Assembly (NCBI GenBank): GCA_051294375.1
Contig: CM119267.1
Location: forward strand, 491,523-555,522
DNA from: Paraspadella gotoi
Taxonomy: Eukaryota; Animalia; Chaetognatha
Reading direction: 5' to 3'
DNA: 64,000 nt
A program made the position numbers and the translations under genes. Below are positions 1-64,000 of the stretch, piece by piece; within the stretch, counting starts at the first letter, position 1; every line of letters begins with the position of its first letter. Below the pieces are notes generated by a model. It searched no databases and had not been told where the DNA came from. It saw nothing but the letters and a program-made list of their open reading frames with translations.

Positions 1-758
1 TTCTCTATCTCGGAAGCATTCTTGTCGACGAATACGGATCCGAAGTCGGCTGTGTCGACGGCCTCATCCAGATGCTGGAGGCCTTCCTCGGTCCCACCTT
101 CAAGATTTTGCAAGGGACGACCGACTCTTCGAGCCCGACGCCCGGATCCTTCTATATCGGCCTCCGGGAACATCCGGACACTGTCGACGATCTCTTCCGC
201 CTTTGCACCAGATTTCTACAGAGATGCCCGGTCCCCTTCTTGCAGAACACCTTCCTGGAGACGCTCCTCGGCGTGGCGCTCCACGCGGCCCAACTAGATC
301 ATCGAGACGCGAACGCCTCCGTCATGAAGTTTTTGACGGAGTTGATTCGTTGCGGAAGCGCGGAGGCGGAGAAGATCGGCGAGAACGAGGCGGAGGCGTC
401 GAAGGCGATGATCAACGGCCTCTTGATTGAGAGAGGGGAAGCGACCAACATCCTCCGATCTCTCCTTCAATCCTCGATCTATTACCTTCCCTCCTACATG
501 TGCGTCGACGTGAGCGAAGTCATCTACGAACTTCTCAACCTGGCCAGACCTGCTGTCTGCGTCGCCTTGGAATCCGTGCTGCAGAGTCTGCCCACCTTCT
601 CGTCGGTCGGCGTGACACCCACTTCGCCGCCGCCGGAGACCGCGACGCCGGTCGTGACTCAGGAGCAACTCTCCGAGTTTCACAAGCAAGTCGTGGAGTC
701 GGACTCGGCTAAGAACGTGCAGTGCGCGTTGAGAGAATTTACTCGACTTTTTAGATGA
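1..758 (+). CDS. TNPO3: Transportin-3 (TRN-SR), C-terminal part; 5' end lies outside the window
   Basis: Frame is open from position 3: LYLGSILVDEYG...HPDTVDDLFRLCTRFLQR...LDHRDANASVMKFL...ALREFTRLFR*, matching the recalled TNPO3 C-terminus. Confidence 0.93.
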   Translation, partial: LYLGSILVDEYGSEVGCVDGLIQMLEAFLGPTFKILQGTTDSSSPTPGSFYIGLREHPDTVDDLFRLCTRFLQRCPVPFLQNTFLETLLGVALHAAQLDHRDANASVMKFLTELIRCGSAEAEKIGENEAEASKAMINGLLIERGEATNILRSLLQSSIYYLPSYMCVDVSEVIYELLNLARPAVCVALESVLQSLPTFSSVGVTPTSPPPETATPVVTQEQLSEFHKQVVESDSAKNVQCALREFTRLFR

Positions 759-1964
759 TTTACGAATTTCGGCTTCCGAAAAAAAAAAACAACAAAAAAC
801 AAAAAACAAAAAAAAACAAATTAATGAATCATCGGGCGATTGCGAAACCTTTATTATTAACCGTTGAACAGTTAAAAACACCCATCGATTTAGTTAATGT
901 TAAATCAAGTCAAATTAAAAGAGAGAATTTGAGAGGGAGATCCACTTTAAACGCTAACAAGAAAATTCTTATTTCTTTTGTCACCTAAACTGAAGAATAA
1001 ATATTACGGATCCTTCTTGAAAACTGAAGCTCATCGTCTTTACGTAAATTTTGATAAGGAGGGAAATCTCATGTACATCTGTTTCTCTCTCTCTCTCTCC
1101 GATGTGTTTTGTGACGATATCATGGACGAAGGCATCAGCTTAGTAGTTAAAGCGAATACCAGTTTTTCTAAAATCACAAATCGGAATAATGAAATGCATT
1201 GTTTTTTTAAAGTTTGTTGCCGCTTTAGTATTAACTATTGTTACAAATGCAAAATTGTTTAAGAGATAACGTAACATACTGCAAACTAGTTGTAAATGAC
1301 CCCTAGCAGTCAAAGATAAATCGCTAAGTTCGTGTTTTTGAAATATCAATAAAAATTAGACTGTATAATGAAAAAAAAATGTATTAAATTTGTTTTAGTA
1401 AAAATAAGTTATCAAGGAAACAAATTGCATTAAAAGATAAAACATGAAAATCGTTCCCTCAGTTTTGAAAATCGACGCCGAACTGACTGAATGAAAAAAA
1501 AATAAAGCACATGAACTCTTATTTGTAATTTGAACATTTTGAAAATTACAAAGTATTGAAAGTAATGTTTAACAACTGGAGATAACAATTGATTAGAATT
1601 TGTAACAAAAATAAACTAAGCTTTTATTCGACAATCAATAAAGTATTTTTAAAGCCTTTTCCAATAGATAAAATTTCTTCGTACATCTGCGAATAATGAA
1701 ATCAGGTCCTAAATATAATTAAGTGTCGTTTTAATCCGCCAATTTTTTTTAATTCGATTTGTTATCTCCGTTGGCTTTTTTTTTTTTTTAAAGAAAAACC
1801 AAACCGAACTTTAGTTTAGATTTCGATTTCTTTTAGTTTCAATTGTTCCTCTGCGTGTTTTAGCCGTTTCTTCATTCTCATCGTTTTTTTGACATGATCA
1901 GATTTTCCTCTCCCCCCGCCCTCCCTCCGCATCCACTCGATCGATAAAACAAAACTGTCGAGAA

Positions 1965-3106
1965 ATGAGCATCCGCGAACTCGGACCCGTCAAGGGCCTC
2001 GTCGCTGCCTCCTTCGCTCCCTTGATGCCCGACGGGGAACTCAATCCCGACGCCCTTCCGCCCTACGCGGACTTTCTGGTGAAAGAAGGCGTGGAGGGCG
2101 TCTTCGTCAACGGGACGACTGGCGAGGGCGCTTTGCTCACGATGGAGGAACGGAAGCGGATCGTCGAGGGTTGGGTCGCAGCCGCTGAAGACAAATTGAA
2201 AGGTATAAGATCCAATTTTCCCGACTTCCTTAATTTCTATCTTTTACCACGTCTTTCCCCTCTTCCAGTCATTGTCCACGTCGGCTGCGGCAACGTGCCC
2301 GATTCTGTCGAACTCGCCCGACACGCGGAGACGGTCGGAGCGAGGGCCGTCGCCGTCTCCGCGCCCACTTACTTTAAACCGACCTCCGTTAATGCGTTGG
2401 TGGCTTTTAACGAGGTGAAGTGGTTCGCACATGCGCTTAACGAGCGAGTTGGATTTTGTTGCCTCTAACAATCCTTGATTCCCCTGACCAGATGGTCGCC
2501 GCCAGCGTTCCCCACTTGCCTTTCTTCTACTACCACATCCCCGTCCGCAGCGGATGCGTCGTCCCCGTCGATGAATTCTATGCTCGAGCCTCTCGTCTCA
2601 TTCCCAATTTTCGCGGGATGAAGTTTTCTTCTTCGGACACCGTCGCCCTCGGTCTCTGCCGTCCCACGCTCCTCCGATTCCCCGCCCACCAAGTCTTTTG
2701 GGGCTGCGATGAGGCGCTGCCCACCGCCCTATACTACGGCCTCGAAGCCGCCATTGGCTCCACTTTCAACTTCATGGCGCCGGTTTATGGCGCCATAATC
2801 GCCGCTCATCGCCGTGGCGACGCCGAAATAGTCATGGATCTCCTTTACTCAGTCCAAGATTTCGTCAAGTCCTTAAAGACTCTTTCCGACGGCGGCTTCA
2901 TCGAGCCCGTCTTAAAGAAATGTATGACGGTCGTCTCGGGAGTGGAGATGGGACCCGTCCGGTTGCCCTTGGAGGATCCGACCCGAGAGCAGAATGAGAA
3001 GCTTGGAGAGCCGCTGGAGAGACTCGCGGCTGTGATTGAGAGAGCCAGGTTGATTATTGTCAAGTATGATAAACCATCGCTTTCTGATGGAGAGAGCGAT
3101 AAGTGA
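1965..3106 (+). CDS. NPL: N-acetylneuraminate lyase (DHDPS family); exons 1965-2202, 2269-2414, 2492-3106
   Basis: Motifs NGTTGEG, VIVHVG, FFYYHIP, GMKFS (Schiff-base Lys), GSTFNF and GPVRLPL; GT-AG introns keep the frame. Confidence 0.9.
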
Positions 3107-3357
3107 TTATGACGTTTTTGGTGCAAATTTAATAAATAGAATCCTACTTGCTACTTAAAATAAACACGAATGCTGGATTTTGGCGTCTTGCCGATTATCG
3201 AGGTGCAATTAGTCACAATTTTCACCCATTATTTTTTTTTTTATATTAACTTTTTTTTCGTATTTTTAATTTTACGGAAATTGTTTTTAAAGAACGTGCC
3301 TTAATTTTTTATAGCCGAATCGAGTAAAAAAATTGTCAAGTCTCCGATGTAAGAAAG

Positions 3358-7612: not shown

Positions 7613-7912
7613 AAAGTTCGTCCCAATCCGCTCATCTTTTTTTGGTTTTTTTTTGTTTATTTTTTTCTCATTTAGTTTAATTTTTGGGGCTTCAATTCTT
7701 ACTTATCGTGACTATGTAAGTAACTTTACTATGATCGATTTATGTTATCTTGTTCTGAAATTGCCCTTTTTACTATAAATACCCATCAACATCATCAGTC
7801 ATATCCTTTGTCGGCCTTATGATGTTTTTTTTGATGTTATATGTTATATATATGTATATATTTTCCAAGGACATCTTTTCCGTCTAAAAAAAAAATAAAA
7901 AAATGGGAAAAA

Positions 7913-8156
7913 ACGAGCGTCCGCGAGTTGCCCATCATCCAGGGTCTCATCGCGGCAACTTTCACACCTTCGGCTTCGCACCACAATGGAAGTCTCAATT
8001 TGGCCGCCCTCCCTAACCACGTCGATCTCCTCCTCCACAATAAGATCGAGTACATCTTCGTCAACAGGACGGTGGACGAAGGCGCTCTGCTCACCATCTC
8101 CGAGCGTAAGGAGATCGCCGAGAAATGGGTGCAAGCCACCAGAAATAAGCTCCAAG
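7913..8156 (+). pseudogene. Truncated NPL paralogue (exon 1 only)
   Basis: SVRELPIIQGLIAATFTP...IFVNRTVDEGALLTISERKEIAEKWV parallels NPL exon 1. The start is ACG rather than ATG, NGTTGEG is changed to NRTVDEG, and no downstream exons were found. Confidence 0.75.
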
Positions 8157-8541
8157 GTTTACATGGGGATAGAGGGTTACTGCCTTTGCGGATAAGGCTT
8201 GACCTAAGGCTTGGCCCCAAGGGTTGACCCAAGCTTCAGCTGGTCGATGTTGATGCATCGGATCCGAGCCCGCCGATAGTGAACAATCATCAAGTACCCA
8301 CTAATGGAATGTTTTTGGCGTTTGGCTGTTATTTTACATTTTTCTTGAAAAATAACATATCTTTCTTGCTATGTTTTTTCATAATTATTACTTATTTTAC
8401 CTTTTCACTATATTTTTTTTTTTATGCAATGTGAATTTTGTTTTCGAATTTGCTTTATTTTTACGTTCGTACCGAAATATTGGCCGTTTGTTTTTCCTTT
8501 GCAACCACTCATGTTTTGAGCATCGCCTCTTCGTCTCAGGG

Positions 8542-10016
8542 ATGGGAAATTATTTCTGCGGCCGCCACAAGATCCTCAACGCCGAGGGCGCCGACGCTGC
8601 GGCTGCGGCTGCTTCGTCGAGGACAACGTCCAAGGAATCCGCCCTCGAACTATCGCGTGCCATCCAGCGCCTCATGCTCGGCATCCAGGGAGAGCATCTC
8701 TCCGAGGACGGGAAAAGGGTTGACTACGCCGCCGTCAAGACCAGCGCCGCCTTCGCCGAATACATAGAAACGACGAGGAGATTGAGGGAATGTCAAGTCG
8801 GATCTTTGGAGGACGACGAGCGGAAGGTGACGGTGGTGTTGGTAAGGGGGGGGGGGCGATTAGAGAAAGTGGATTAGAGAAATGTCATTGAACCTTCGGT
8901 TCTTTACTCGAAATTGAACAGAAACACATAAAAATATATCTTGACGAAAGTTTATGAAATCGGTACAACCAATATAAAAATTATCCATTCATTTAATAAA
9001 TAATAGGACAGGCCATAGTATTTGAAGGTCTCCACACGCTCATAAGATGATAACATAGCAGCTTTCAATCAAGGCTCTCACACACTCGTTTATTCACTAT
9101 CAGAATACTCCGTTTTCCTATCAATGAAATGGTTGAACATTTCCAAGTATTTTCTGCGTCGTTTTTTTGCTCCTTGAAAACGAGGCCGAGTCTTGGTTAT
9201 TGTTTCCGAAGCCAGATTCCCAAGCGACCGACCCGTTCGAGGTCCAGCCCCTTTGTTTTACAGGCATTGTTATTCGCGATCTCTCCATACAATGAATCAC
9301 GCCAGTTGTCATATCGCTTTATCCCTCTTTTGTCGGATTTGCTAGAAAAGAAAGTTTGGAAGTCTTGTCAAATATTTTACGATAAAAATATACACACTAA
9401 ATCCCAGGCTTTTTTCATCAACATCTATAACGCCCTTAACATACACGGGATCATCTCCTCGGGCGGTCTCCCCGCCTCCATGACTGGCAAGGCGGCCCAT
9501 TGGAAGTGGACGGCCTACGTCATCGGTGGCCTTGTCTTTTCCCTGGACGACATCGAGCACGGCATCCTCCGAGACAACTCTCCCAAACCGATCGTCGCCT
9601 GCGGACGTCAATTCTCCAAATCCGACCCTCGGGCCAAGCTGCGATTGGCCAAGGATCCTCGCATCCACTTCGCCCTCAATTGCGGCGCCGTGTCCTGCCC
9701 AGCCATCCGCGTCTACAGCGCCGATAACCTCGAGCGCGGTCTCCAAGGCGCCGCCTCCAATTTCTTCTCCTGCGAGGTGAAGATGTCGGCGCGCGGGTCC
9801 GAATCTGTCGAGTTCAAGCTCAGCCATCTCTTTAAGTGGTACAGGGGAGACTTTGTGCCCATCAAGTCTTCGAAGCTGGACCCGGTGCTGGAGTGGATCG
9901 CCGAGACGGACCCCGAGTCTGACGTCGCCCAACAGATTCGAGAGGCTTCGATCGGAGGAAAGAGGATCGTCATTACTTACGCGCCTTACGATTGGTCGAG
10001 CAATGATACACATTGA
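8542..10016 (+). CDS. DUF547-domain protein; exons 8542-8826, 9408-10016
   Basis: AFFINIYNAL, FSLDDIEHGILR, DPRIHFALNCGAVSCP, LFKWYRGDF and YDW are DUF547 signatures; the N-terminus is MGNYFCG. Confidence 0.85.
8951..9110 (-). repeat. Dispersed intronic repeat family A, partial copy
   Basis: tttatgaaatcggtacaaccaatataaaaattatccattcatttaataaa is the near-perfect reverse complement of 25740-25790. Confidence 0.7.
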
Positions 10017-15128: not shown

Positions 15129-18100
15129 ATGGGTCGGCGGAGTTCTGACGAAGAGGATCGACGTCGTCGGCGAAAGAAGCGAAGATCTCGTTCCAACTCT
15201 GAAGACTCGAGCGAATCGTCGGGCGGGAAGTCCAGCGCCTCGAGGAAGAGGGGGAGAAGGAGACGCTCGAGGTCGAGGTCGAGGTGAAGACTCCAGAGGG
15301 TTAATCCAAACATCATTATTCATCAACTTCTCCATTCATTCTTTTCATTATGCATTCATTGTTAGATAACAATTACTGTTTACGATCGGTCGATTCGTAT
15401 TCCTCTATCCTACTTAAGTTTCAAATGTTTATAACTCGTGTAGTACTTCATTGGTTAAGTTTATATGATGTACTATAAGACCTTTAATGTGCAGTGGAGG
15501 TGGTCGAGATAAAAATGGCGGACAAAATGACATGAATAGATTTATTGAAATCAGAAAAACGAATGGAATCGAATTGGCAAAGTGGCATTAATTTTTATAA
15601 GGCGAGAGAGAGAAAAAGAATTCCAAATAAGGTAAAGTTTTTGCGACCGGCGTTTGAACAGAGGGAGCAAATTTTTTCTTAGCTGGGATTGGAATTTTTA
15701 AAGAATTCGACCGGCGATTTTATTTTTAGTCGGATCTGCTTATAATCCACTTTGTCGGTCCGTCGGTCCGCCCCCTCAATCTTGTCGGGCATTAACTTAT
15801 TTCATGTCAGAACATCGAATTATTATAAATTATGTAAAAACAGTCCGTCTGTCTGTCCGTCCGTCCGTTCCACTTTAGCAAAAAACTCGTGATTGGATTG
15901 TTGGATTGGAATGAAATTTTGTGTGTGGGTAGGAAAGTGTGTGATTGAGCTGGATATAAAGTTTCGTTGGAATCGTGTAAGTGGAAATGAGTTTAAATTC
16001 AAAAAGATAGTCATATTTACCTGAAGTATTTTTACTTATATTTACTAATAATTATTATATTTATTAAAAATTGGATTGATAAATTGAATTTAAATTTTGT
16101 GTGTAGGTAGGAAAGTATACAATTAAGCTGGATATAAATTTTTGATGGAATCGTAAGAGTGGAAAAGAGTTTAAATTAGAAAACCAAAAGACACATTTAA
16201 TTGAATTTTTTTTAAATTTCTCATCTCACTGATTGATTGATTGATTGAGTGGATAAAATAATGCCAGTTGATCAAATTACGCCAGTTGAAAAAATTATGC
16301 CAGTTGACCAAATTATGCAAGTTGACCAAATTATGCAAGTCGGTATTGGCGAGGCTACTGGTAATGATTGATAGATCATTTGATTTATAGTTTTTTTCAT
16401 AGATTTGTCTGTTATGTCGTATGATTTGTTATGTTACAATGTGTTATGATCTGTTAAGATCACAAATTCAGAAAAAATTATCGTAGGCAGATCCGACTTT
16501 GTTTGCTCAAACTTGTTTTTTCTTACTAATTATAATAATCAGGATCTCCACTGTGCATTTATAATTTATGTATTATAAATTATGGTGATGAGGGGGGTTT
16601 CCGTCAAAAGGCGAATAAGAACGACGGATCATGACGAGAGTTTATGTCCAACAATGAGTTAAGGGGGGTTAGGGTTAAGGTTGGTTTTAAAAATAAGTAT
16701 TTTTAAGTGGTTTTTCAAAAAACTCCAAAACCCCGGTCGGCGAAAGTAAAACTTTTGCCAATTTGTGCAGTTACGTGATTCAAAATTATGTACTTAGTCA
16801 ATAGTCATTTTAGTTAATACTATACAGACTGATAAGGAATTAGTAAATGCTTTTTGTACATATATTTTATGCCATACAGAACTTCGTTCACGTGATCAGA
16901 AAGTAAATGCGGCATCTTTTGTGTATTAAGTAATAAACCATAAGATGCTTTTCGTGCATATTTTTCACACTTGTGTCTACAATGACCTGATTATCGGGAA
17001 ACGCGTCCATGAAAGAAAGTCACAGCGGCGCAACAGAACTTACCGGTTCTTATTTTTATCCATTTTGTCATTGATTCATTTCTTTGACTTGATTCACTTA
17101 AATCTCATCCCAGTCGACGCGAGGGCGGTAGCCGCAGCGCCAAGCCTCAGCGACGCAGCCGGAGCCGCAGCGGGAGTCGCGAGCGGCGGCGGCGGCGTTC
17201 GACGAGTCGCGATCGAAAGAAGACGCCGCGCGCCTACAGGTCGCGAACGCGGTCGCGGTCGCCGAGGAGGTCGACGAAACGATCGAGACGGTCGCGGTCC
17301 AGGGAAAGGCTCGTCAGGCGCCCCAGGTAGAAATGGATGGATTAAACCGTTTAACACTAACCGTCTCACAGTAACAGTAACCTGGGGGACTATATAATAT
17401 ATATATATATATGTATAACTAAAGAAGAAGAAAATTTGTACTGTCTTTGGACGACAAATTTGTTGTTTGGCTAAAGAGTAAAATTTTTTTCTCTTTTTTA
17501 ATGTTATTATTAGTACTAACGCGCAACGAAAGGATATAAAACTAAGTCGAATTATTTTTTCATTGTATACTTTCTTTCAGTTCGTTGTGTTTGAGATTAG
17601 ACGATAAAAAGTAAATATTGGTTTATTTCCAACAATGTAACGGTAGGATTTTTTCTACCTTACCCTATCCTACCGTTGTTGTAAATAAACCAATATTTAC
17701 TTTTTCTCGTTTAATTTCTTTTATCGTAATATGCAAATGTGACTCGAACTTGATTGTTTTTATTTCCCTCAGCTCTAGCGCCTCTCGTTCCGTCTCCAAA
17801 GAGCGCGTTGAGGCATTCGGCAAACCTCTTCCGCCGAAGCCTAAAGACTCGAGCGACGACGACGAGGAGACTCGACTGGCGAAGGAGCTCGCCAAGAAGA
17901 AGACTCCGGCTGCGGTGTTTGACATCAAGGTCGACGGGGAAGAGTCGCGTCATCGCCAACTCGCTCGTCTCGAGGACGACGGCTTCGCCCCCGCCGCCTT
18001 CAAGAGTTCCCGCGGCGATAAACGACCTAAGCGACGCGGCGAGACCGACGCCGATCCCGTCGTCGTCGTCACCGAGCACGAGGACGCCATCTTCGGCCGG

Positions 18101-18367
18101 AAATCGGCCGACGTCAAACCGGAAACGGCGGAAAAACCCGCGACTTCGGCGACTCCGCTCTCTCGCGCCGAGAAACTCTTCGACGTTAAGTTAGCGGCGG
18201 GTTTGGCCGACGTCGACTTGACCAAACTCGCTGCGCATCCGTCGCTTTACGAGGACCCGGCCATCAAGGACGAGAGATGGAGGAAGAGGTGGAAGGAGAT
18301 GAGGAGGAAGAAGATGAGGGAGATTAGCAAAGGACGTGGGGTGGAGGGGGCGGGGCTCCTCGCCTAA
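15129..18367 (+). CDS. RSRC1: Arginine/serine-rich coiled-coil protein 1 (SRrp53); exons 15129-15283, 17114-17326, 17773-18367
   Basis: Starts MGRRSSDEED, has an RS domain, and a C-terminal LEDDGFAPAAFKSS / HEDAIFG / HPSLY...ERW region. Confidence 0.75.
15728..16515. mobile_element. Non-autonomous Helentron/DINE-like element in RSRC1 intron 1
   Basis: 12-bp inverted repeats agtcggatctgc (15728) and gcagatccgact (16487), GTCY microsatellites, internal ~170-bp and ~20-bp direct repeats, and a short 3' hairpin gtttgctcaaac. Confidence 0.5.
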
Positions 18368-18472: not shown

Positions 18473-21378
18473 ATGGAATTAAAAATGGCGCCGGAAACGG
18501 AGACAACGACAACAACGACGACAGAGATTCAATCCGCCCCAAAAGAGAAAAGAAAGAGAAACAAACTGTTTATGTCGCAAGTTGCGCAACAGTTGGAGTT
18601 TTACTTCAGCGACACGAATCTGCACAAGGACAGATTCATGAAGGAGGCCGTGTTGTCGTCGTCGTCGGAGCCTCGAGGAAACCCAGTCGCCATAGAGACG
18701 CTTTTGAGCTTTAATAAACTGAAATCTATGGGCGCGACGTCGAAGGTAAGGTCAGAGAGGGTAAAGGGAACGAGCGGATGATTTAAACTTTATTTCATTG
18801 TTTATTTTTAAAGATTATTAAAGGATCATTGAAGAAATCGAAGATCCTTCGGCTCGGCGACGACGGAGACTCGGTACAACGATCGACTCCGATTCAAGAA
18901 CCGAAAAATGTCGACGAACGGACGGTAAAATGCGGCAGAGTTATCATCGCCATCTATTGAGAATGAGCTTAAAAGTCAAATGATAAGTTGGAACACCATT
19001 TCATATTTCTCTTCCTCCCTCCTTTTCTACGTGGAAAACATCCCCTACCTCTTCCTCTCACGATTTCCTTCGTCAAATCTTCTCTAACATTTCTTATTTC
19101 TCCCCCCTGCCTCTTTGTTCCGACCAGGTCTACGTTGAGAACATCCCCTCCTCTTCCTCTCACGATTCCCTTCGTCAAATCTTCTCTCAACATTTCTTAT
19201 TTCTCCCCCCTGCCTCTTTGTTCCGACCAGGTCTACGTTGAGAAACATCCCCTCCTCTTCCTCTCACGATTCCCTTCGTCAAATCTTCTCTCAACATTTC
19301 TTATTTCTCCCCCTGCCTCTTTGTCCGACCAGGTCTACGTTAGAACATCCCTCCTCTTCCTCTCACGATTCCTTCGTCAAATCTTCTCTCAACATTTCTT
19401 ATTTCTCCCCCCTGCCTCTTTGTCCCGACCAGGTCTACGTGAGAACATCCCCTCCTCTTCCTCTCACGATTCCTTCGTCAAATCTTCTCTCAACATTTCT
19501 TATTTCTCCCCCCTGCCTCTTTGTCCGACCAGGTCTACGTTGAGAACATCCCCTCCTCTTCCTCTCACGATTCCCTTCGTCAAATCTTCTCTAACATTTC
19601 TTATTTCTCCCCCCTGCCTCTTTGTCCGGACCAGGTCTACGTTGAGAACATCCCCTCCTCTTCCTCTCACGATTCCCTTCGTCAAATCTTCTCTCGCTTC
19701 GGTTCCGTCGTCTACGTTTCTCTCCCTCGATTCAAACAAACTCGCGACCTCAAGGGATTCGCCTTTGTCGAGTTCGACGACGAGGAAGGCGCCAGGCGCG
19801 CCGCCACCGGCGTCTTTACCGACGCCGGATCCGGCAAACAGAAGCCAGCGCGTCTGCCCGTCATGAACCGGGCCATGGCGGCTTTGGCCCGGGCGAACCG
19901 GGAAGGGGCGGACGCGGCGGAAGATAAGACGGCGGCATGCGCGTCGTCGAAGAGGCGAAGAACTGCGAGCGAGGGAGAAAAGGAGACTGCGGGGGCCGCA
20001 GCAGCAGCAGCGCCGGCGGGAGAGAATGAGGAGGAAGCGGCAGCGTCTGGGCCGAAGGTTAAAAGGCGCCGAAGAAGAGGGCGCTCCATTTCTCTCTCCG
20101 TCGAAAACGAGGCGCCGAAATCCTCAGAAAATTCTGTGGCGGAAAAGGAGGATTCGGCGTCGAAAATCTGCGCCGACGACGCCGAGAAATGTTTGGCGTC
20201 GAAGCTTAAAAAACTTAAGAGGAAAAAAAGCGCCGCGGAATCGGAGACGGAGGCGCCGGCGCCGGTCGCCGCCAAAAAGGCGCGCAAGGATGGGAGAGTC
20301 AAGAAGGAAGGGAGGAAAACGGAGGAAGATGCGAGGAAGGAGAGAAAAGAGGAAGGGAGGAAAACGGAGGATGATGCGAGGGGAAATATAAAAGAGAAGG
20401 AGAAAAAAGAGGAAGGAGGAAAGGCGAGAGAACGCGAGGGAAAAGTGAAATCTGAAGAATTAGAGGAAAGGAAAGAAACGGAAGAAGGAAAGAAAAAACC
20501 TAAAAATCGACGAAAGAAAATTGATAAAAGGAAAAAAGGAAAATCGAAAAAGGAGGCTCCTTCCGCTCATCGGATGAAGGTCATGCCCAAGAAAGAGTGG
20601 GAGGCGTTGAGGAACGAATACTTGACCCTTCAGCGACAAAGGATGTCCGCTCTCAAACAGAACTTGACCAACGCGCGAACCGACGCCGAAGCCGCTTCCA
20701 AAATGGAAGAGGGCGAGGTTGCAGGGGTGGGGAGGGCGCCGCCGCAGCCGCCGCTGCCAACGAAGGACGCCGTCGCGACGGAACAAATCCCCGGCGTCAT
20801 CGTCAAGGTGGAATCGAAGAGCGAGGATCAGACTTTGCCGCCGAGGAGCATCTTGAAGAATTCCTTCGAGAAGGAGACTTTGTCCAAAGGGGACGAAGCC
20901 GAGGGATTCGTCAAGATCGCCTACATGGACATGGAAGAGGGACGAGTCTCCGGTGAGGAGGGATATGAATTTTGAAAATGAATGGACGAATATTTGCTAT
21001 TATTGATGAAATTAGTACAATCAATGTACAACCAATGTCCAACACCAAAATGGTGGGTTAATGCCTACATCGTTGAGATAATAGCATTGCAAGACTCTCT
21101 CATATGTCATCCTAGGTCACATCCGATGCTGCGATCCCGCCTCCGCCTCCCGTATCCTTTCCCTCGGCCTGGCCGGATACCAACTGTCCCTCGTCACCGG
21201 CGCCGACGAAGACGCCTACTGGGAGAAAGTGCGGCTCTGCAGGGCGGCGCGGAAAGCCGGCGGCGGAAAGAAGGGGAGCAGGGCGAAGAACGGAATGAAG
21301 CGATTGGTGGAGCGGGCCAGCGCGGGAAAGCCCAATAAGGCTGCGGGGCCCACGACTCACGTCCGGTTCGACGACTGA
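18473..21378 (+). CDS. LARP7: La-related protein 7 (7SK/U6-binding)
   Basis: La motif QQLEFYFSDTNLHKDRF, RRM1 TVYVENIP...VYVSLPRFK...KGFAFVEF, MKVMPKKEWEALRNEYLTLQR, xRRM region and a HVRFDD* end. Confidence 0.9.
19025..19695 (+). repeat. ~101-bp tandem repeat (~6.5 units) spanning a LARP7 intron acceptor and exon start
   Basis: gaccag|gtctacg acceptor copies end at 19127, 19230, 19332, 19432, 19532 and 19634. Confidence 0.9.
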
Positions 21379-21596
21379 TCCTGTGGAGAAGCGGCTTGGC
21401 TCTCGAAAGGCTTGGGCAGCGTTTCTCAATAAGGCTTTGGCCAGTAGTGACTTAGCGTCCTGTTGAATTTGCCACGATTTAGAATGTCATAATTTCTCAA
21501 TTTTATCTCTCCCGAGTTTTGATTCTCATTTAAATCGCGTATTTCCTTTATTCATTCATTTAAATTTGTCCACGAATTCCCTCAAGATGCACAACC

Positions 21597-39352: not shown

Positions 39353-40086
39353 ATGACGAAATCCTCACGCGGGGAACTCCGCGAGTCGACTCGCATCAAG
39401 AACGATCCCAATCGACCGCGGATGCTCGACGAGGCTGCCCGTCAACGCCGACAGCGGAAGCAGCTCGAAGCCCTCGAGGCCGACAACTTTGGCGAAGACC
39501 CCCACGCCGATCTCTCCATGCACAAGAAGGTGTTTGATTTACATCAAGTTAACTTCACGAGATCAAAATCGCTTTTTGCTTTAAATCTTAATCCTCTTCT
39601 CTCTCCTCTTTTCCTTCCCTTCTTCTCCCCATCCTCGTTTATTTTTTTCCCTCTTCTACTTTTTCTCTTTAATCTTACCATTTTTCCCTTCCATTTTCCT
39701 ATCCCATTTCTCCTTTCCCTTTTCCCCATTCCCCCTCCCATTTTCCCGCATCCCCTTTCTTCCCTCAAAAGGCTCCGAAATTCGAGGAGCGCATCGGGGA
39801 ATCTGCCAAAAAGAAAAAACGATCAAAACTCGGCGAATATTTCAAGTTTAAATTTAAGCGAAACTTTCACGCGCTCATCGAGGAGGAAGCTTCCTCCTCC
39901 TCCTCCTCTTCCTCTCCCAATTACCTCTCCGCCGCCGTCCCGCCATCCAAGTTTCCCGACCGGAAGTTCTGCGCCGTCTGCGGCTTCTTCTCCAACTACA
40001 CGTGCACCTCGTGCGGAGCGCGGTTTTGTTGCGTGCGTTGCTTGGGAACGCACAAGGACACGAGGTGTTTGAAGTGGACCGCGTGA
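39353..40086 (+). CDS. ZNHIT1: Zinc finger HIT domain protein 1 (Vps71/Swc6, SRCAP), 2 exons
   Basis: LDEAARQRRQRKQLEALEADNF.EDPHADL; RKFCAVCGFFSNYTCTSCGARFC...HKDTRCLKWTA*. Confidence 0.93.
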
Positions 40087-49028: not shown

Positions 49029-51702
49029 ATGATATCTTGGTCCAAAAATACCGGCGTCGTTTCCTCCAAACCCGGCGCTCTTTTCCAAGCTTTCGTCAAC
49101 GACGACGACGCCGTCTCGATCCCCGGCGTCGAAAACTTTCCCAAGATGATGAATTTTCCGAGCGAGGCTGAGTCGGCGTCGAGCCGACGAAAAGTGGCTC
49201 GATGGCAGCAACAACAACTGAGAAGCGAGGAGAGGACAAAGAAAGACTCGGCGCCTCCGCCGCCGCGAACCTCGATCCCCTCGACCACTCCTTCCTCCTC
49301 TTCCCCTCGCGCCACCCTCAAGGATCTCCGCGCGGAAGACAAACGCCGCGTGGCCAACCTCATCCAAGAGTTGGGTAAACTCTCGGCGGAAGGAGAAAAG
49401 TCTCGCGCCAAGTTGGAGCGAGAGCGGAAGACTTACGAGACGCAGATCAAGAAGATCCTGCGCCGTCACGACTGCGTACTGAGCGAGAAGCAGCGGCTGC
49501 AGGAACAGTACCTGGAATGCTTCAAAATTCTGCTTCAGTGTCAGGAGACGATAGGGAGCGGGAGGAACTCGGCAGCGACGGTCTCGACGAGCGCTTCCGG
49601 CGCTGGAGGAAGGGATGGAGAACAGGGAGGGTGAGTGTCGTGTTGCGAAGTGAAGGGGGGAATTTTATGTTCGAGAGATTATTGAAGATTATCCCAGTTT
49701 ATTTATAGTCATTGAATCTTCGAAAAATCTGTTTCACACCTGCTCTCAAATTCAATCACCATAGAAATATTCTGCTCGTTTCTGAAGATCTAGTCCCTAA
49801 TAAAGACTAATATATCAAGTTCACCCAGCCTATAGACAAACATATTAGGAATATTAGATTTAGGCCTGGTTCCAAAACCCGGACCACTTCTATTGATGGC
49901 GAGAAGGCCAAAGTTAGCGCCTTAACGACACTTATCCAACTTGCCGAACGATCCATTGAAATGATTCAAAGAGATACTCATTAATCAATATTAATCAATA
50001 TTAATCAATATATTTGCTTAGTGAATCAACCTCCGGAACCGGAAATGCCGAGAGAGGCGACGTCGCCGTCTCCACCAGAAACGCGACACGAGCCGACGCC
50101 GACGTCCAGACCGACGCCTCGAGTCTCGGCGACGATTCAACGCGAATAAAATCGTCCGGAACTAATGCGGCGCCGGGACGAGACTATCCGGTACCTTACC
50201 CATATACATACCCTTTCCCCCCTCCGTTTTATCCTCGATCCTTCTCCCCTCCACATCGCCTTCACTACGACAGACCTCATCTTCTCTACCCGGATCATTC
50301 CCGCGTCTTTTCTAATTTGAGAATGATTCCATCCGAGAGTTTCCCGATTTCGCCGGCGCCGCCTTTCGCGGCGCCGGCTTTTCATCCTTCAAATTACGAC
50401 GCCTTGGGTCGACATTCGGTGCCGGCGCCGCCTCTAGTTGCCGCCGCTCCTTTCGAGAGACAGGGAGTGATGTACGATACGTCGCCGATCTCGGACGGCG
50501 TCGTCCCTCTTCGCAGTGGTCCCGACTTTGCGACGCCGCCTCTTCATCAAGACGCTCGAGAAAACGACGGCGTCGCGACGATGGAATCTTTTCGTCCGAT
50601 ACAAACGGACAACTCTATCACCGTCCGTCAAACTCCGACGATGAACGAAGAAGTTGGTTCATGCGCGGCGCCGAAATGCGAACAGACTGTGGAATTCGAG
50701 ACGAAAAACGGCGCCTCTGCGAACGTGTCGCGGAAAAAGAGTGCCGCAGGGAACGTTGCGCGGGAAAATGGCGCCGTAGGGAGCGTTGCGCGGGAAAAGG
50801 GCGCCGCTTGGAGCGTTGCGCGGGAAAAGGGCGCCTCGGTCCAAGGAAAGAGGAAGACTGTTCACGAAGGAGCATCCACGGCGCCATCGTCGTCTTCATC
50901 GACCTCCTCTTCCGGCGAGTCCCTCGCACGATCCCCCAAAACGTCCGTGCCGACTGCGGCGGCTGAGTCGGCCGCTTTTTCCGGCGGGGACGGTGGCGGC
51001 GAAGGCGACGGCGACAAATCGCGAGAGAAACTGACCGAGTTGCGAGAGGCTCTCCGGAGAGAACAGGACAAACTCCGGACCAAACTCGCTCGTCAGGAGC
51101 GCTACATTCGTAAAAAGGAAAAGCAGTTGAGGCGAACGGGCAACAACGAAGGCGACTCCGGACGAGCGGACAATGCCCGCCAACCATTGGACGACGCTGA
51201 CAGCGACGACTTCTGCGATGGACGGCGACGACGACGACGACCCCTGACGTCGAGGAGAAATGATTCTAGACCAAAATCGAAGGAGCGATTGGCCGATTTA
51301 GTCGACAGCATCGAGTCGAGCGATCGAGAGAGGATCGAACGCTCGGCCTTTCCGCTTCCTCTGAAATCCAGCACCATGATCGACTTGGCTCGCGATGGCG
51401 ATGGGAGAGACGTGTTGAGGGATCGGAAAGGTCCTAGCGCCGCTGGTGGAAATGCTCAGAAATGCAACGAAATGATGAACAGGAAGCCGATGGCGGCGCT
51501 GCCAAACTCCTGCATTGGAGGCGAGTTTCGAAAGCAAAATTTGAATTCCGGGATGCGAGATTCCAAATCGATCGTCGATCTCGGAAGAAGCGGCGCGACG
51601 AGATCGACGGCGAGCGGAGAGAGATCGAAGAAGATCGAAGAAGCGGAAACGAACGACGATCAAGAGAACCAGTTAATCAACGATATTTTTTTTCTTCATT
51701 GA
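49029..51702 (+). CDS. KIAA1328: Hinderin (KIAA1328)-like, 2 exons
   Basis: LKDLRAEDKRRVANLIQEL...LQEQYLECFKIL coiled coil and C-terminal ENQLINDIFF. Confidence 0.8.
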
Positions 51703-56280: not shown

Positions 56281-59200
56281 ATGACAAAAAGCAATCAAAA
56301 GATGGGGACCGGACGCCCTCATCGGAACTCCTCCTCCGGTAAATCGGCGTCGCCTTCCGCCTCCTCGAACCGTCCCCACCCGCCGACCCCAAGCTCGCGT
56401 CGCGACAGCGTTTCTTCTCTCACGTCGGAGGCGTCACAGGATCTCACGTCCTCACGTTTCTCTCTCCTAGCGGCGAAAGAAAGAAGCTTTTACGGGGGCG
56501 AGTCCCGCTTGGATTGGGTCGCCGTCCTCGTCCTCTTCGGCCTCGTCTATCTCGGCGCCCTCTCTCGGTTCCACGGGATCGCGGAACCCGATCACGTCTG
56601 TTGGGACGAGGCGCACTTTGGGAAGCACGCCACTTGGTGAGCGAGGCGGTGGTTGGGGGGGGGGGAGAGGGTGGAGAGAGAAAGGCCACTCATCGGTAGT
56701 TGAGATATGGCAATATGTAAAAAAGATTAAGAAACTCTATCCCATTTGAAATAAAGCAAAAGTTATTCTAGTTATTCTTCTACCTAGTATCTTTTGGTGT
56801 TTTTTTTTTTTTTTGTGTGTCAAACATCGAACATCTTTTTTCTTGTCGTCCGTCTCTATCACTTTGAAATTATTATTATTATTTTCTCACGGATGAATGA
56901 AAAAAAATATAAAAATTGATATAATAAAATAACAATTTTTTTTTAGGTACATAAAGAATGAGTTTTTCTTCGACGTCCATCCTCCGTTGGCGAAGATGCT
57001 CATCGCTTTTGTGGGAGACTTGACTGGATACAACGGGTCCTTCGCCTACGATAAACCGGGCGACAAGTATACCGACTCTACCCAGTTTAAGGGTGAGATT
57101 AAAAATCCTTGAAGATTTATAAAATTTGACAAAATCAAATATCTAAAAACGTTATTTCCTTTGGTTTTTCTGGAGAGAGAGAGAGAGGCCAAATGATGAG
57201 GTCGCGTAGTTCCCAGATACTCATCGTTCCCATTTCATTCCACCTCAGGGATGCGTACCCTCTCGGCGACCTTGGGTTTCCTCCTCATCCCCCTCTGCTT
57301 CGGCATTGTGTGGCAACTGACTTCCTCGCTGAGCGCTTCTCTGTTGGGCGCCGCCTTTGTTTTGGCAGACACGGGGACTCTGACCCTGACCCAATACATC
57401 CTCCTCGACCCTCCCCTCCTCTTCTTCATCGCCGCCTCCACCTTCTTCTACCTGCGCTTTCTCGGCCACGCCCACTCCGCCTTCTCGCTCGCCTGGTGGC
57501 TCCATCTCTCGCTGACAGGCGTCTGCCTGGCCGGCGCCATCGCCACCAAGTTCGCGGTCTCTTCGTCGTTCTCCTCGTCGGCGTCGGTACCATCGCCGAG
57601 TTGTGGCGGTTGTTGGGCGACTGGAGCCTCAGCCTCCTTTTCGTGATCAAACACTTTATCGCGCGGTGAGAGTCCCACCCCCCACCTCCCACCCCCCCAC
57701 CCCCCACCCCGCTCGAAATTCACAAAAAAAAGACTCGATTATAAACGTTTAAGATTAAAAAAAAAATGCCGTCGCCTGATCCATTCCTCCATTCCCCCCC
57801 CCTCCAACTTGTCCGCAGCGTGGTTGGTCTGATCGTCATCCCGCTCTCCATCTACGCCTTCATCTTCCACGTTCATCTCGATCTCCTCTTCATCTCCGGA
57901 TCCGGCGATGGGTTCTACTCTTCCGCCTTCCAGTCTCAGCTCCGCGGCAACTCGCTCTACAACGCCACCATGCCGGCCGACGTCGCTTACGGCGCCACCG
58001 TCACTCTCAAGAATCATCGGACGGGCGGCGCTTATCTTCATTCTCACCATCACCTCTACCCGGAGGAAGTTGGGCCGCGACAGCAGCAGGTGATATTTAA
58101 ACTTTGGACAGGCTAGGATGGGTTAAGGACTCCATCACTCCTACCAGATAATGATATAACAGGTCCCTGCAAGCTTTCGATCACGACTCCCTCAAAGAGT
58201 ACCTCGCTTGAAGTTGTATAATGTATATTGTTTCAAGGAATGTTTCAATTGTATAAAAGGACCACTACCTAGTCCATTGTACTCTACACTAGCATGAAAA
58301 TGCAAGAAGCTGATTATTACTTTGTCTTTATCTCCAGGTGACGACCTACTCCCACAAAGACCACAACAACGTTTGGAAGATCAAGAAGTTCGACGTCGAA
58401 TCCTCGGACGAAGGAGGATCCATCGATCTGGTCAAATCGGGCGACTGGATTCGACTCGAACACGTCCCCACCGGAAGGAACCTCCACTCTCACCGCGATC
58501 CCGCCCCCATCACCCACAAGCATCTCCAGGTCACGTGTTACGGTCTCAAAGAATTAGGAGACGTTAACGACATCTGGCGAGTGGAGATCGTCAACGGCCA
58601 ACCGGGAGAGACGATCAAAGCTGTCAGTTCTAAGATAAGGCTCATCCACGTCGAAAGGGGTGAGTTTTAAAAGGAAGGGGGGGGAAGATATTTAAATCAG
58701 AAATTCATTTCTTTACATCTTTAAGATGATAATACTAAAATACATTAAATACAGTAAAACATTAAAGATGGCGAAATGTTCCTCCCCCCCTCAGGTTGCG
58801 CTCTTCAGAGTCACAACAAAAAACTCCCTAAGTGGGGATGGGAACAATTGGAGGTGACGTGCAATCCCAAAGTTGGCGACATGACCCACTCCGTCTGGAA
58901 CTTTGAGGATAACCACTTTCCCCGCCTCCCTAACGTCTCCTTCGAGTTTTACCGGCCATCCTTCCTCGAGCGGTTCGTCGAGTCGCACATGGTGATGCTC
59001 CAGGGCAACTCGGGTCTGAAGCCCAAAGAGGGCGAAGTCACTTCCCGCCCCTGGCACTGGCCCCTCAACCTCAGGGGCCAGATCTTCAGCGGGCGGGAGC
59101 ACTTCGTCTATTTGCTGGGGAATCCGTTGGTCTTTTGGTCGGTGCTCGCCGCCATCCTCGTTTACGCGGTGAGAGGGAAAAGGGAAAGGTGAAATGGAAA

Positions 59201-60135
59201 AGGGAAATGGAAAAGGGAAATGGAAAAAAGAAAGGGAAAGGAAAATATTAAAGGGAAATGGAAAAAGAAAGGGAAATGGAAAAAAGAAAAGGAAATGAAA
59301 AAAAGAAAAGGAAAGGGAAATGGAAAAAAATGGAAATGGAAAAGGAAAGGGAAATGGATAAGAAGTGACGACTCAAACCTTTCATCATTGATCATCGCTC
59401 ATCGATTTATTGTTCTCTTGAGAGAGTTGCGTTAACACTCTTAGCTAATTTATTTCAGGTTTAATATTAATTAATTGATATTCAAAAAAAAACCCAAAAA
59501 ATTCAAAATAAAATTTAAAATAAAAAAATATTCGCCTCTTCTCTCCCCCCCTCCCTTAGTTCATCGCATTCGTCATCAACGTCTCCCGTCAGCGTCGCTC
59601 TCTCCTCCATGACTCTTCCTCTTCCTCCTCCTTCTCCTCCTCCAAAGTGGCCGACCTCACCCTCGACCCCGACGTCGTCGTCGTCTTCAAAACTCAAAAC
59701 GATACTTTCCTCTCCGCCGCTGGATTCCTTCTGCTCGGCTACGCCCTCCATTACCTTCCCTTTTTTCTCATGGGCCGCGTCCTTTACTTCCATCATTACT
59801 TTCCCGCGCTGCTCTTCGGCTGCATGTTGACGGGTGAGTTGGAGGGGTCGGCTTTTTATTGTCCGTATTTGTAAATGAGATTCAATCTCTTCCTCTCAAA
59901 CCTTTTTTTCTTTTTAGGTGTCGTCATCGATTACACTATCCGCTTCCTCGTCCGTCTCCTCCCTTCCTACTTCGACTTCCTCGCTTTCCACGGCTTCCTC
60001 GTCTTCGTCCTCTCTTCCCTCGCTTACTCCTTCTATCTCTTCAGCCCTTTGGCGTACGGGGTCAAAAACGCCCTCAGCGACGACCCCGCTTCGGTCATGC
60101 ACGGCCTCAAGTGGCTCAACTCGTGGGAGTTTTGA
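56281..60135 (+). CDS. POMT2: Protein O-mannosyltransferase 2, ~8 exons
   Basis: [44 protein letters not shown] domains ([15 protein letters not shown]), [20 protein letters not shown] and LKWLNSWEF*. One apparent indel lies near 57555. Confidence 0.95.
58100..58270 (-). repeat. Dispersed intronic repeat family A copy (POMT2 intron)
   Basis: gtttcaaggaatgtttcaattgtataaaaggaccact is the reverse complement of the 5' end at 25523-25560. Confidence 0.7.
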
Positions 60136-62057: not shown

Positions 62058-62275
62058 CGAACCTTGGCCGGTCGGTCGGTCTTTGTTCTTTAAGAAACTA
62101 TCGTGATCAGTGATCTTCTTCTAGCCTCTCGGTATCCTCACAAAACAGAGTAGAAAAGTTTTAAGAGATCGAAAGTAATCTTTATGGTCGAAACAGGAAA
62201 AACGGCGACGAGTATGCAGAGCTCTCTTTCTCCCCCGCTCTCTCGATCTCTCTCCATCTCTCTCTGTCTCTCTAT

Positions 62276-62406
62276 TTAATAATCATCGAGTTCCTCCTCG
62301 TAGTTGACCATTCCTTCTTCGGTGCTGACATCTTGATACATTTGATATTCGGAGACAAGATCGATCATATTCGATTCCGCCTCGAAGAATTCTTGCTCGT
62401 CCATTC
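62276..62406 (-). CDS. Terminal exon of a divergent beta-tubulin (rest of the gene not in the window)
   Basis: The reverse complement reads ...ctacag|GA ATG GAC... = (G)[42 protein letters not shown]. This matches beta-tubulin [26 protein letters not shown] and is preceded by a C-rich tract and a CAG acceptor. Confidence 0.85.
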
Positions 62407-62903
62407 CTGTAGATCAACGGGGATAAATAGGGTGGGGGATTGGGGATCGATTACCGGTGGGGGATCGGGGATCGATTACTGGTCGAGCGCTCGCGCGAAT
62501 AAATAGCTTTTGTGATATGAAACTCTTCAGTGAGAATGCGACAAACTACCAGTTCACATTTACGCTTTGTTTTAGTTATTACTTAGGGTATTATTTTTCT
62601 TTGTAACTTTTATATCATTTTTATTTTCTAGACGAATCAAGCGTTAAAAAACAAAAACAAACTATATAATCCGTTAATAGATTTCGTACACTGCCGATTA
62701 TTCTCAACTCGCGAACCGATTTTTTTTTCGATAGAAGAAAAATACAAAACCTCTTTTCTCCTTCTGAACCAAAAAACAAAAAAACAAAACCTTTTCAACT
62801 TGAATCATGCTGCGGCGACATCCGCAACTCGGCTTCACTATCGCCGCTGGCATCATGAGCTCTCATTAACGCCTCTAAACCTAACGCCGCAGTCGCCGCC
62901 GCA

Positions 62904-64000
62904 ATGCTGGGCCGATTCCGCAGCGCGGTAAACACGGCCTTCGACGGCCTCGTCTCTTTCGCCGGCCAACCGCCGGGCGACGGGAACGGACTCTACCCTC
63001 CCTCCCCCGACCTCAACCTCAAACCCAAATACATCTACGGAAGACCCCACTTTCTCAAGCTCTCTCCCGACGAGGTGAGAAAATTTGTAAGAGATTATTT
63101 CTTCATGTAATCTTTAGTGAGACCAAATCCCTCAATTTCATTTACATAATGTAGTGATGAACTTCAATTGTCATGTTTTTGTGGTTTTATAGTTGGATAT
63201 TAGTTATGGTCTTTAGCAATGTTAATAATTTACAAGAATTTAACAAGTTAAAATATTAATGATTATAACGAGTTTATTCCTCATATTGATTGACTTTCTC
63301 ATATCTGGTAGTTTATAAATTTGTTTAAGGATAAAAATATGGAGTTTATGGCAACAGCCGGGTTGCCTATGATGCCCATTGGGATGGGGCATCTCACTGT
63401 TGGTTTTGGGGGCTTCCGACCCTCAGTGACGCCTCCAGTCACTGGCACGGTTACCCTAGGACGGTCTCGCTTTGCCAACGCAGAAGGAAGTCGTTAGGAC
63501 TGTGGATGGAACACTACGCCTGGGATGGTGTGTTCCCCCTCTGAGCCAATGGATTTGGCTGAAGGATGGAGGACGTGAGGCGTTGTGAATATACCGCCAC
63601 AAGTTCCTTATTTTTTATACGTAACTGAATGAGAAGAGAGAAAAAGAGGCTAATTTTTGGGAAATGATTCTTTCCAGGTTCAAGCATCCTGTGATCACAG
63701 CCTCCGCCCGATTCTCATTCCGCGAAACTCGACGCGTCTCCCGTGGAACGCGGGTTACGCCGAAGTCGTCAATGCCGGAAAATCAAAGCATAACGAAGAC
63801 CAGGTCCGTCGAAAGGGAGAGAAGATTCTTGTGGAGGCGAAAACCAAAGAATTCTTCTTTATTAAAAATAATAATTGATTTATTATTAAAGAGAGACACA
63901 CACACTAATTCACTATTTTTTTTTCTCTCCGTTCGCTCGAATCCTGATCGTTTTGCTTCTCTTCCTCATTAAGGCCGCTTGCCATGCGTTCGACATCCAC
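62904..64000 (+). CDS. PPM1H: Protein phosphatase PPM1H/J-like (PP2C), 5' part
   Basis: MLGRFRSAV...YGRPHFLKLSPDEVQASCDHSLRPIL...LPWNAGYAEVVNAGKSKHNEDQA. Confidence 0.88.
63347..63601 (-). mobile_element. 255-bp solo-LTR-like element with a 4-bp TSD (AGTT) in PPM1H intron 1
   Basis: agtt|tatggcaac...ccgccaca|agtt; reverse complement of 32152-32406 with few substitutions. Confidence 0.75.

What the first reader, a model, noticed from the sequence alone, without database searches (positions are those of the whole stretch)
1..64000. Giant co-oriented gene array: a candidate animal 'mega-operon' of 28+ unrelated genes
Seen: 28 intact genes and one pseudogene, all on +, across the whole 64 kb and running off both ends. 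Stop-to-start spacers are mostly 100-700 bp (RSRC1-LARP7 105, ZNHIT1-DEK 120, COA5-RPL32 216, LARP7-HRI 218), leaving little room for separate promoters. The genes are unrelated housekeeping and germline genes, not a tandem family. Under independent random orientation the chance is about 2^-27. Established: nematode and tunicate operons are resolved by SL trans-splicing, are enriched in such housekeeping genes, and usually hold only a few genes; very long polycistronic units are typical of trypanosomatids. Inference: this animal may transcribe kinetoplastid-scale polycistronic units while keeping cis-introns.
Basis: partly seen in the sequence, partly recalled or inferred. Interest (0 to 1): 0.92.

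Follow-up and report, generated by a model that had tools for sequence, protein, structure and literature searches.

The report
Arrow worm's 29-gene one-strand operon chain
In what is likely an arrow worm, 29 mostly unrelated genes lie head to tail on one strand across 64 kb, one assembled transcript carries that phylum's known spliced leader and three others stop at an AG in front of the next gene, so the genes are likely co-transcribed in units longer than the nine-gene record for the phylum, possibly on a trypanosome-like scale.

Summary
In detail: 29 gene loci, all on +, no gene on -, stop-to-start spacers 4-1406 nt (median 350). The animal is likely a chaetognath: its RPL32 matches Spadella cephaloptera at 131 of 133 residues, and an RNA contig carries the last 15 letters of the published chaetognath SL2 leader at an AG before RPL32. 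SL-resolved operons are already known in this phylum (longest reported: nine genes), so the mechanism is not new; the scale may be. In the 20 kb with RNA data, 8 of 10 junctions show a leader-type 5' extension, a 3' end on an AG, or a bridging contig; one more follows by arithmetic. Even a 621-nt spacer looks like 3' UTR abutting 5' UTR, as in Ciona's gap-free operons. A published Spadella BAC table has 14 of 14 named host genes on one strand over 120 kb. A single promoter for the whole run is untested; 18 of 28 junctions lack RNA data, contigs are not molecules, and a chain of about 12 ordinary operons is not excluded. New variant of a known kind; interest 0.62.

The parts
1..758 (+). Transportin-3-like gene, 3' end (cut by window start)
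   Evidence: Pfam PF24139
1965..3106 (+). DHDPS-family gene (NPL-like; name recalled), 332 aa
3358..7612 (+). CENP-C-like cupin gene; frameshifts in tandem repeat 5000-5470 as assembled
   Evidence: Pfam PF11699 E 2.8e-18; first exon assignment is inference
7903..8227 (+). Truncated NPL-like copy (pseudogene)
   Evidence: weak Pfam hit; 74% DNA match to the NPL gene
8542..10016 (+). DUF547 gene, 297 aa
10615..12189 (+). Fibrillarin, 310 aa
12635..14983 (+). Unidentified 752-aa two-exon model (my working label FANCB-like is a recalled guess, not supported)
   Evidence: open model; no Pfam or PDB hit; plus frame best by a thin margin
15129..18367 (+).
   Evidence: 7 unnamed homologues at 50-54% identity
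18456..18457 (+). Likely trans-splice acceptor of LARP7
   Evidence: X9 contig starts at 18458; X5 contig has 25 unlaid letters before 18458
18473..21378 (+). La + RRM gene (LARP7), 654 aa
   Evidence: spliced contigs
21585..21586 (+). Likely trans-splice acceptor of HRI
   Evidence: X5 contig has 15 unlaid letters before 21587
21597..23735 (+). HRI eIF2-alpha kinase, 712 aa, one exon
   Evidence: Pfam PF22949, PF00069
23978..23979 (+). AG at which the HRI contig of X5 ends; predicted acceptor of MOCS2A
   Evidence: top 2.4% of spacer AGs by acceptor score
24040..24321 (+). ThiS-family gene (MOCS2A; name recalled), 93 aa
24370..24806 (+). COA5/PET191, 87 aa
   Evidence: Pfam hit below cut-off
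24979..24980 (+). Trans-splice acceptor of RPL32; leader joined at 24981
   Evidence: 15-letter loose end in one X5 contig equals the 3' end of chaetognath SL2.0 and is absent from the window
25023..26086 (+). RPL32, 133 aa
   Evidence: 131 of 133 identical to S. cephaloptera P0210
26298..26299 (+). AG at which RPL32 poly(A) tails begin; predicted acceptor of the BTB gene
   Evidence: poly(A) loose ends behind 26298 (5) and 26303 (1); top 3.3% of spacer AGs; 408 nt without ATG follow
26708..28540 (+). BTB-BACK gene, 610 aa, one exon
29676..33567 (+). FKBP gene (FKBP6; name recalled), ATG 29947, 519 aa, with a 5' UTR intron; start at 29676 is computed
   Evidence: joints; arithmetic
34160..35344 (+). 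HMG-box gene, 242 aa
   Evidence: joints
35731..36972 (+). SLX1, 292 aa
37195..37196 (+). AG at which the SLX1 contig of X5 stops fitting (21 unlaid letters follow); weak acceptor score
37245..37664 (+). CDPF1, 139 aa
37669..39102 (+). Divergent tubulin (delta-like; subtype recalled), 427 aa, 4 nt behind CDPF1
39353..40086 (+). ZNHIT1, 163 aa
40207..41283 (+). DEK, 358 aa
41981..42845 (+). Isochorismatase-domain gene, 194 aa
43140..45291 (+). TAPR1-like gene, 431 aa
46066..48093 (+). ADP-dependent glucokinase, about 500 aa (third intron ends uncertain)
49029..51702 (+). KIAA1328-like gene, 760 aa
52301..55340 (+). MFS transporter (SLC45-like; name recalled), start uncertain
   Evidence: Pfam hits below cut-off
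56281..60135 (+). Protein O-mannosyltransferase, about 785 aa
60609..62057 (+). Polyprenyl synthetase (GGPS1-like; name recalled), 313 aa
62904..64000 (+). PPM1H-like phosphatase, 5' part (cut by window end)
   Evidence: PDB match E 6e-14

Best explanation
The window holds 29 genes on one strand in what is likely a chaetognath genome, and they are likely transcribed as one or a few long precursors that spliced-leader trans-splicing cuts into single mRNAs at junctions predicted to have little or no gap. Shown: co-orientation, cis-introns, the leader on RPL32, 3' ends on an AG at three junctions, contigs crossing three spacers. Inferred: that the AG where an upstream RNA ends is also the next gene's leader acceptor (Ciona pattern), so that long stop-to-start spacers are UTRs and not promoter room; that at least RSRC1 to HMG (9 genes) and probably FBL to DEK (16 genes) form one co-transcribed stretch. 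Untested: how many promoters feed the run. The single-promoter reading is the extreme form of this explanation and is counted inside its confidence.
For: Taxon: RPL32 131/133 to S. cephaloptera, at most 106/133 to any other named protein scored; leader match. X5 and X9 behave as RNA: 15 of 15 listed GT..AG joints are in both and none in X1. Of 10 junctions in 17500-37400, 8 have a listed sign and 1 a computed one. 3 of 3 readable 3' ends lie on an AG, against 8.1% of spacer positions (p about 5e-4). 408 ATG-free nt between the RPL32 poly(A) site and the BTB start (p 0.017 by shuffle, one of 28 tests); 305 ATG-free nt before HMG (0 of 300 shuffles). Same junction anatomy published for Ciona and for one Spadella operon (3 bases). 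With the published P. gotoi link rate a 29-gene run is expected 0.003 times per genome. Second locus: Spadella BAC 35A21, 14 of 14 named host genes on + over 120 kb, the 4 minus rows transposon-type.
Against: A leader alone does not show co-transcription: in P. gotoi about half of genes are trans-spliced but 18% are called operonic. The leader's letters were seen in one contig only; the other extensions are unlaid letters of unseen sequence. No leader was seen at the three AGs where 3' ends fall. Contigs are not molecules and X9 may hold DNA, which would bridge spacers too. One RPL32 tail starts 4 nt past the AG; the SLX1 AG scores as a weak acceptor and is followed by an upstream ATG. HMG-SLX1 showed nothing; 18 of 28 junctions have no RNA data. 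Only 7 of 28 spacers are under 250 nt stop-to-start, 6 exceed 700 nt and 13 hold AATAAA. The BAC was picked by its authors for same-strand clusters and has gaps up to 14 kb.
Confidence: 0.6

Rival explanations
1. A chain of ordinary short operons and single trans-spliced genes, each with its own promoter, that happen to point the same way in a gene-dense housekeeping region.
For: With a 500-nt stop-to-start rule the window falls into 12 blocks, the largest of 8 genes, within the published range of up to nine. Twelve blocks on one strand has p 4.9e-4 per locus; by hand arithmetic that allows about five such runs among some 19,000 transcription units, and this window was picked for being striking. 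13 of 28 spacers hold AATAAA.
Against: The spacers of 621 and 592 nt that this rule treats as breaks show an abutting 3' end or a bridging contig, and the 1406-nt one is crossed by computation. The Spadella BAC repeats the one-strand pattern.
Confidence: 0.3
2. One reading: one promoter upstream of the window drives all 29 or more genes, as in a trypanosomatid polycistronic unit. This is the extreme case of the best explanation.
For: A run of 29 equals the trypanosomatid mean of about 30 genes per same-strand run, against about 2 in animals. No strand switch, tRNA or Rfam gene in 64 kb. No tested junction showed a clear gap.
Against: No promoter data. Five spacers of 774-1206 nt lie outside the RNA-tested stretch. 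P. gotoi operon and trans-spliced genes still have open-chromatin regions, only fewer. Internal promoters in nematode operons are established (recalled).
Confidence: 0.2
3. An assembly or annotation artefact: joined transcripts or a mis-scaffolded stretch.
For: CENP-C and the LARP7 intron carry repeat-associated indels typical of imperfect polishing.
Against: The models hold 59 introns; DNA-type run X1 gives unspliced contigs that cross spacers, for example 19666-23568 and 23539-24881, though X1 may be the window's source.
Confidence: 0.03

Closest known systems
Chaetognath SL-resolved operons (S. cephaloptera, PMC2481426; P. gotoi, PMC12460157)
   Same: Same phylum, same leader family, same-strand housekeeping genes with cis-introns, near-zero distance from poly(A) site to acceptor.
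   Different: Longest reported operon has nine genes under a 250-bp rule; this same-strand run has at least 29. The 2008 paper notes that other BAC genes share orientation but does not propose long units; the 2025 main text never uses the word strand.
Ciona intercistron-less operons (PMC1488885, PMC2760879)
   Same: Upstream 3' end on the acceptor AG, with ends reading 1-2 nt short; no AATAAA within 40 nt.
   Different: Ciona operons hold two to six or seven genes; here the leader at the abutting AG is predicted, not seen.
Trypanosomatid polycistronic transcription units (10.64898/2026.07.29.740908)
   Same: Tens of unrelated genes on one strand, resolved by leader trans-splicing; run length about equal to their mean of 30.
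   Different: Those genes are largely intronless and share one start and stop site; this run has 59 modelled introns, its promoters are unknown, and in P. gotoi only half of all genes are trans-spliced.
Dinoflagellate unidirectional gene blocks (PMC8110479)
   Same: Long co-oriented blocks in a trans-splicing organism.
   Different: Genome-wide there (half of genes in blocks of nine or more); shown here for one locus, with a hint from a second.

Membership tests
Chaetognath SL-resolved operon | Neighbouring genes on the same strand | tested here: met
   29 of 29 loci on +
Chaetognath SL-resolved operon | Less than 250 bp between genes | tested here: inconclusive
   7 of 28 spacers stop-to-start; the published rule uses gene models with UTRs, and RNA ends shrink at least three longer spacers to about zero if the AG is the acceptor
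Chaetognath SL-resolved operon | Chaetognath spliced leader on a downstream gene | tested here: met
   RPL32, one contig, 15 letters; LARP7 and HRI by unlaid letters at an AG only
Chaetognath SL-resolved operon | Unprocessed polycistronic RNA | tested here: inconclusive
   X9 contigs cross HRI-MOCS2A-COA5 and FKBP6-HMG, but contigs are not molecules and DNA is not excluded
Ciona-type intercistron-less operon | Upstream poly(A) site on the AG of the downstream acceptor | tested here: met
   3 of 3 readable ends on an AG; only the RPL32 end shows the tail itself, and one of its six tails starts 4 nt further on
Ciona-type intercistron-less operon | Leader added at that same AG | tested here: inconclusive
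   No junction shows both the upstream 3' end and the downstream leader; the tables were cut (1130 loose ends not shown)
Ciona-type intercistron-less operon | No AATAAA within 40 nt upstream of the 3' end | tested here: met
   0 of 9 sites, but only 8.9% of random spacer windows hold one, so this is weak
Trypanosomatid polycistronic transcription unit | Same-strand run of tens of unrelated genes | tested here: met
   At least 29 against a mean of about 30
Trypanosomatid polycistronic transcription unit | One shared transcription start and stop | not testable with these tools
   No capped-end, chromatin or nascent-RNA data
Trypanosomatid polycistronic transcription unit | Largely intronless genes | tested here: not met
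   59 modelled introns, 15 listed as spliced in RNA
Trypanosomatid polycistronic transcription unit | Genome-wide organisation into such units | not testable with these tools
   No genome held for the window; P. gotoi gene table too large to read; one BAC table as a hint
Nematode SL2-type operon | A leader reserved for downstream genes | not tested
   Published work finds no operon-specific leader in chaetognaths

The most novel reading that the evidence does not exclude
Chaetognaths pack their housekeeping genes into trypanosome-scale polycistronic domains of 30 or more intron-containing genes, over 60-120 kb, resolved by gap-free leader trans-splicing; the published nine-gene maximum is an artefact of a 250-bp rule applied to incomplete UTRs.
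Probability: 0.3. Interest if true: 0.87.

Novelty: new variant of a known kind. Interest (0 to 1): 0.62.

Why it matters
Animal operons in the papers I read top out at six to nine genes, and animal same-strand runs average about two genes. A run of 29 with abutting RNA ends would mean that an animal can hand control of a large housekeeping gene set to RNA processing while keeping cis-introns. It would give a second phylum in which to ask whether trans-splicing itself makes the upstream 3' end, a question left open for Ciona, and it bears on why trans-splicing lineages rearrange their genomes fast. It can be tested at once on public chaetognath annotations, long reads and open-chromatin data.

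Tried and rejected
No genome is held, so strand runs could not be counted genome-wide and the array could not be extended. The run search listed no holder on record as RNA; that X5 and X9 are RNA rests on their spliced contigs. RNA data cover only 17500-37400. An acceptor matrix from the window's own introns separated poorly: RNA-supported leader sites scored about 5 against a median of 10 for introns, and the best plus AG beat the minus control in only 19 of 27 spacers by my count. The ATG-free test was significant at 2 of 28 spacers only. The idea that repeats avoid spacers was dropped: self-matches lie mostly in introns, but X1 depth shows repeats in two spacers. The label FANCB-like for the 752-aa model found no support, and no wider search result for it was obtained. 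DEK alone did not give the taxon. Earlier scan notes: none returned.
Full report
Observation. I translated every stop-to-stop ORF of 60 aa or more and scanned all of them against Pfam. On +, 45 of 271 hit at E<=0.001; on -, 2 of 244, both under the curated cut-off and antisense to plus genes. Hand-guided GT-AG models give 29 loci with 59 introns. Of these, 26 have a Pfam hit, PPM1H matches PDB, the RS-rich gene has 7 unnamed homologues, and one 752-aa model has no hit. A leave-one-out codon test favours the modelled plus frame in 27 of 28 models, CENP-C left out. No tRNA, Rfam gene or long coding-like minus segment was found. CENP-C is not open as assembled. Several subfamily names (NPL, MOCS2A, FKBP6, delta-tubulin, SLC45, GGPS1) are recalled from the domains and were not tested.

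The organism. The spliced RPL32 model is identical at 131 of 133 residues to Spadella cephaloptera CAL69079.1 (P0210) and at no more than 106 to any other named protein scored. A 15-letter non-genomic end on an RPL32 contig equals the 3' end of chaetognath leader SL2.0 in Table 3 of PMC2481426 (passages seen) and is absent from the window. Unnamed marine RPL32 and DEK relatives begin with extensions that resemble translated chaetognath leaders (by eye). The window is therefore likely from a chaetognath close to Spadella; I do not assign a species.

RNA evidence, 17500-37400 only (3 of 11 listed runs laid). X5 and X9, from two studies, each hold all 15 listed GT..AG joints, and X1 holds none, so I treat X5 and X9 as RNA. 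Ten gene junctions lie in the stretch. RSRC1-LARP7: the X9 contig starts at 18458, directly behind an AG, and the X5 contig has 25 unlaid letters there. LARP7-HRI: 15 unlaid letters before 21587, behind an AG. HRI-MOCS2A: the X5 contig ends at 23978, the A of an AG, and an X9 contig runs through. MOCS2A-COA5: the same X9 contig runs through. COA5-RPL32: the leader at 24981. RPL32-BTB: poly(A) ends behind 26298 (5) and 26303 (1), with an AG at 26298-26299 and then 408 nt without ATG. FKBP6-HMG: an X9 contig with spliced FKBP6 exons continues to 34365; the X5 contig's end computes to about 34032, near AGs at 34022 and 34055. SLX1-CDPF1: the X5 contig stops fitting at 37196, the G of an AG, with 21 unlaid letters. 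BTB-FKBP6: by arithmetic only, the X9 contig has 890 letters before its first joint, which would reach 28832, and the X5 contig would carry 24 extra letters if the exon begins behind the AG at 29675. HMG-SLX1: nothing listed. That is 8 listed, 1 computed and 1 blank of 10. Contig ends at repeats or intron branches (20529, 20951, 26149, 28727) were set aside before the count of 3' ends. The tables were cut (193 joints, 1130 loose ends, 22258 pieces not shown).

How it likely works. Three of three readable 3' ends fall on an AG, against 8.1% of spacer positions; two of those AGs are in the top 2.4% and 3.3% of spacer AGs by acceptor score, the third is weak. In Ciona, poly(A) is added at the G of the downstream acceptor, often reading 2 nt short, and the authors suggest that trans-splicing may itself make the upstream 3' end (PMC1488885, sections 14 and 17 read). 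One Spadella operon has three bases between poly(A) site and acceptor (PMC2481426, section 13 read). I infer the same here: polymerase reads through the junctions, the leader is added at the AG, and the upstream RNA is polyadenylated at or next to it. Stop-to-start distance then measures UTRs, not promoter room, and a fixed-distance rule would cut one long unit into pieces. No junction shows both the upstream end and the downstream leader, so this step is inferred.

Chance. Independence of genes is the wrong null. With the P. gotoi counts (2151 candidate operons, 5061 genes, 22072 genes) a 29-gene run is expected 0.003 times per genome. If every spacer up to 500 nt is a link, 12 blocks remain (largest 8), p 4.9e-4; up to 700 nt, 7 blocks (largest 13 and 9), p 0.016. 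The 12-block reading could arise a few times per genome (hand arithmetic) and is the main rival, but three of the spacers it treats as breaks show abutting or bridging RNA.

A second locus. Table S5 of PMC2481426 (supplement 2 read whole) lists 24 rows for a 158-kb Spadella BAC: 19 on +, 4 on -, 1 without orientation. All 14 rows named as host genes are on +, from 99 to 119826; the 4 minus rows are labelled as transposons or sit in a transposon group; the other 5 plus rows are transposon-type or unnamed. The table holds only predictions with a SwissProt match, was read by machine from a PDF, and the BAC was chosen for same-strand clusters; the authors remark that further genes share orientation and might be operonic.

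What is known. In P. gotoi about half of genes are trans-spliced, 18% are in operons defined by less than 250 bp, the longest has nine genes, and no leader is operon-specific (PMC12460157, abstract, sections 5 and 10 and passages read). Ciona operons reach six genes (PMC2760879, passages) or seven (PMC7986045, passages). Oikopleura operons were defined at 500 bp (PMC11067885, passages). Mean genes per same-strand run are about 2 in animals and about 30 in trypanosomatids (10.64898/2026.07.29.740908, passages). Dinoflagellates have genome-wide co-oriented blocks (PMC8110479, passages). I found no report of long same-strand runs in chaetognaths in searches, nor by term search in PMC12460157, two chaetognath genome preprints, a phylogeny preprint or a glass sponge genome paper. 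The library lacks most subscription papers; Supplementary Table 1 of PMC12460157 could not be read and may list this or similar runs; preprint supplements were not seen.

Verdict. The feature is real. It works like a chaetognath or Ciona-type leader-resolved operon, and it is not a member of the trypanosomatid class, whose intronless criterion it fails and whose single-promoter criterion is untested. What is new is the length. I give 0.6 to one or a few long co-transcribed units (0.2 of that to a single promoter), 0.3 to a chain of ordinary operons, and 0.3 to the wider claim that chaetognath genomes are built this way. Interest 0.62.

Noticed in passing
window 3358-7612: A CENP-C-like cupin gene (Pfam PF11699, E 2.8e-18) in a phylum reported to have lost CenH3 and CENP-T; the P. 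gotoi main text does not mention CENP-C and its Table 4 was not readable. Its 33-nt tandem repeat has several frameshifts as assembled, possibly assembly errors.
   Followed up: partly
window 24040-24321: A ThiS-family MOCS2A-like gene stands without the MOCS2B frame that follows it in many animals (recalled); COA5 starts 48 nt later.
   Followed up: no
window 37664-37669: Only 4 nt separate the CDPF1 stop from the tubulin ATG, so any leader acceptor of the tubulin gene would lie inside CDPF1's coding sequence, or the two share one mRNA.
   Followed up: no
window 18925-19695: About six tandem copies of a 100-nt unit that includes the acceptor and start of a LARP7 exon; RNA contigs use the last copy.
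   Followed up: partly
window 21587-21613: An 8-codon upstream ORF starts at the first base behind the HRI leader site and overlaps the kinase's ATG out of frame.
   Followed up: no
window 12635-14983: A 752-aa two-exon model without Pfam or PDB hit; identity open.
   Followed up: partly
window 32154-32406 and 63347-63599: A 253-nt element, 96% alike, in introns of two genes in opposite orientations and very deep in run X1: a high-copy mobile element.
   Followed up: no
P0001, P0072, P0076, P0205, P0206: N-terminal extensions of unnamed marine RPL32 and DEK relatives look like translated chaetognath leaders, so such leaders could be used to tag arrow-worm transcripts in plankton protein sets.
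   Followed up: partly
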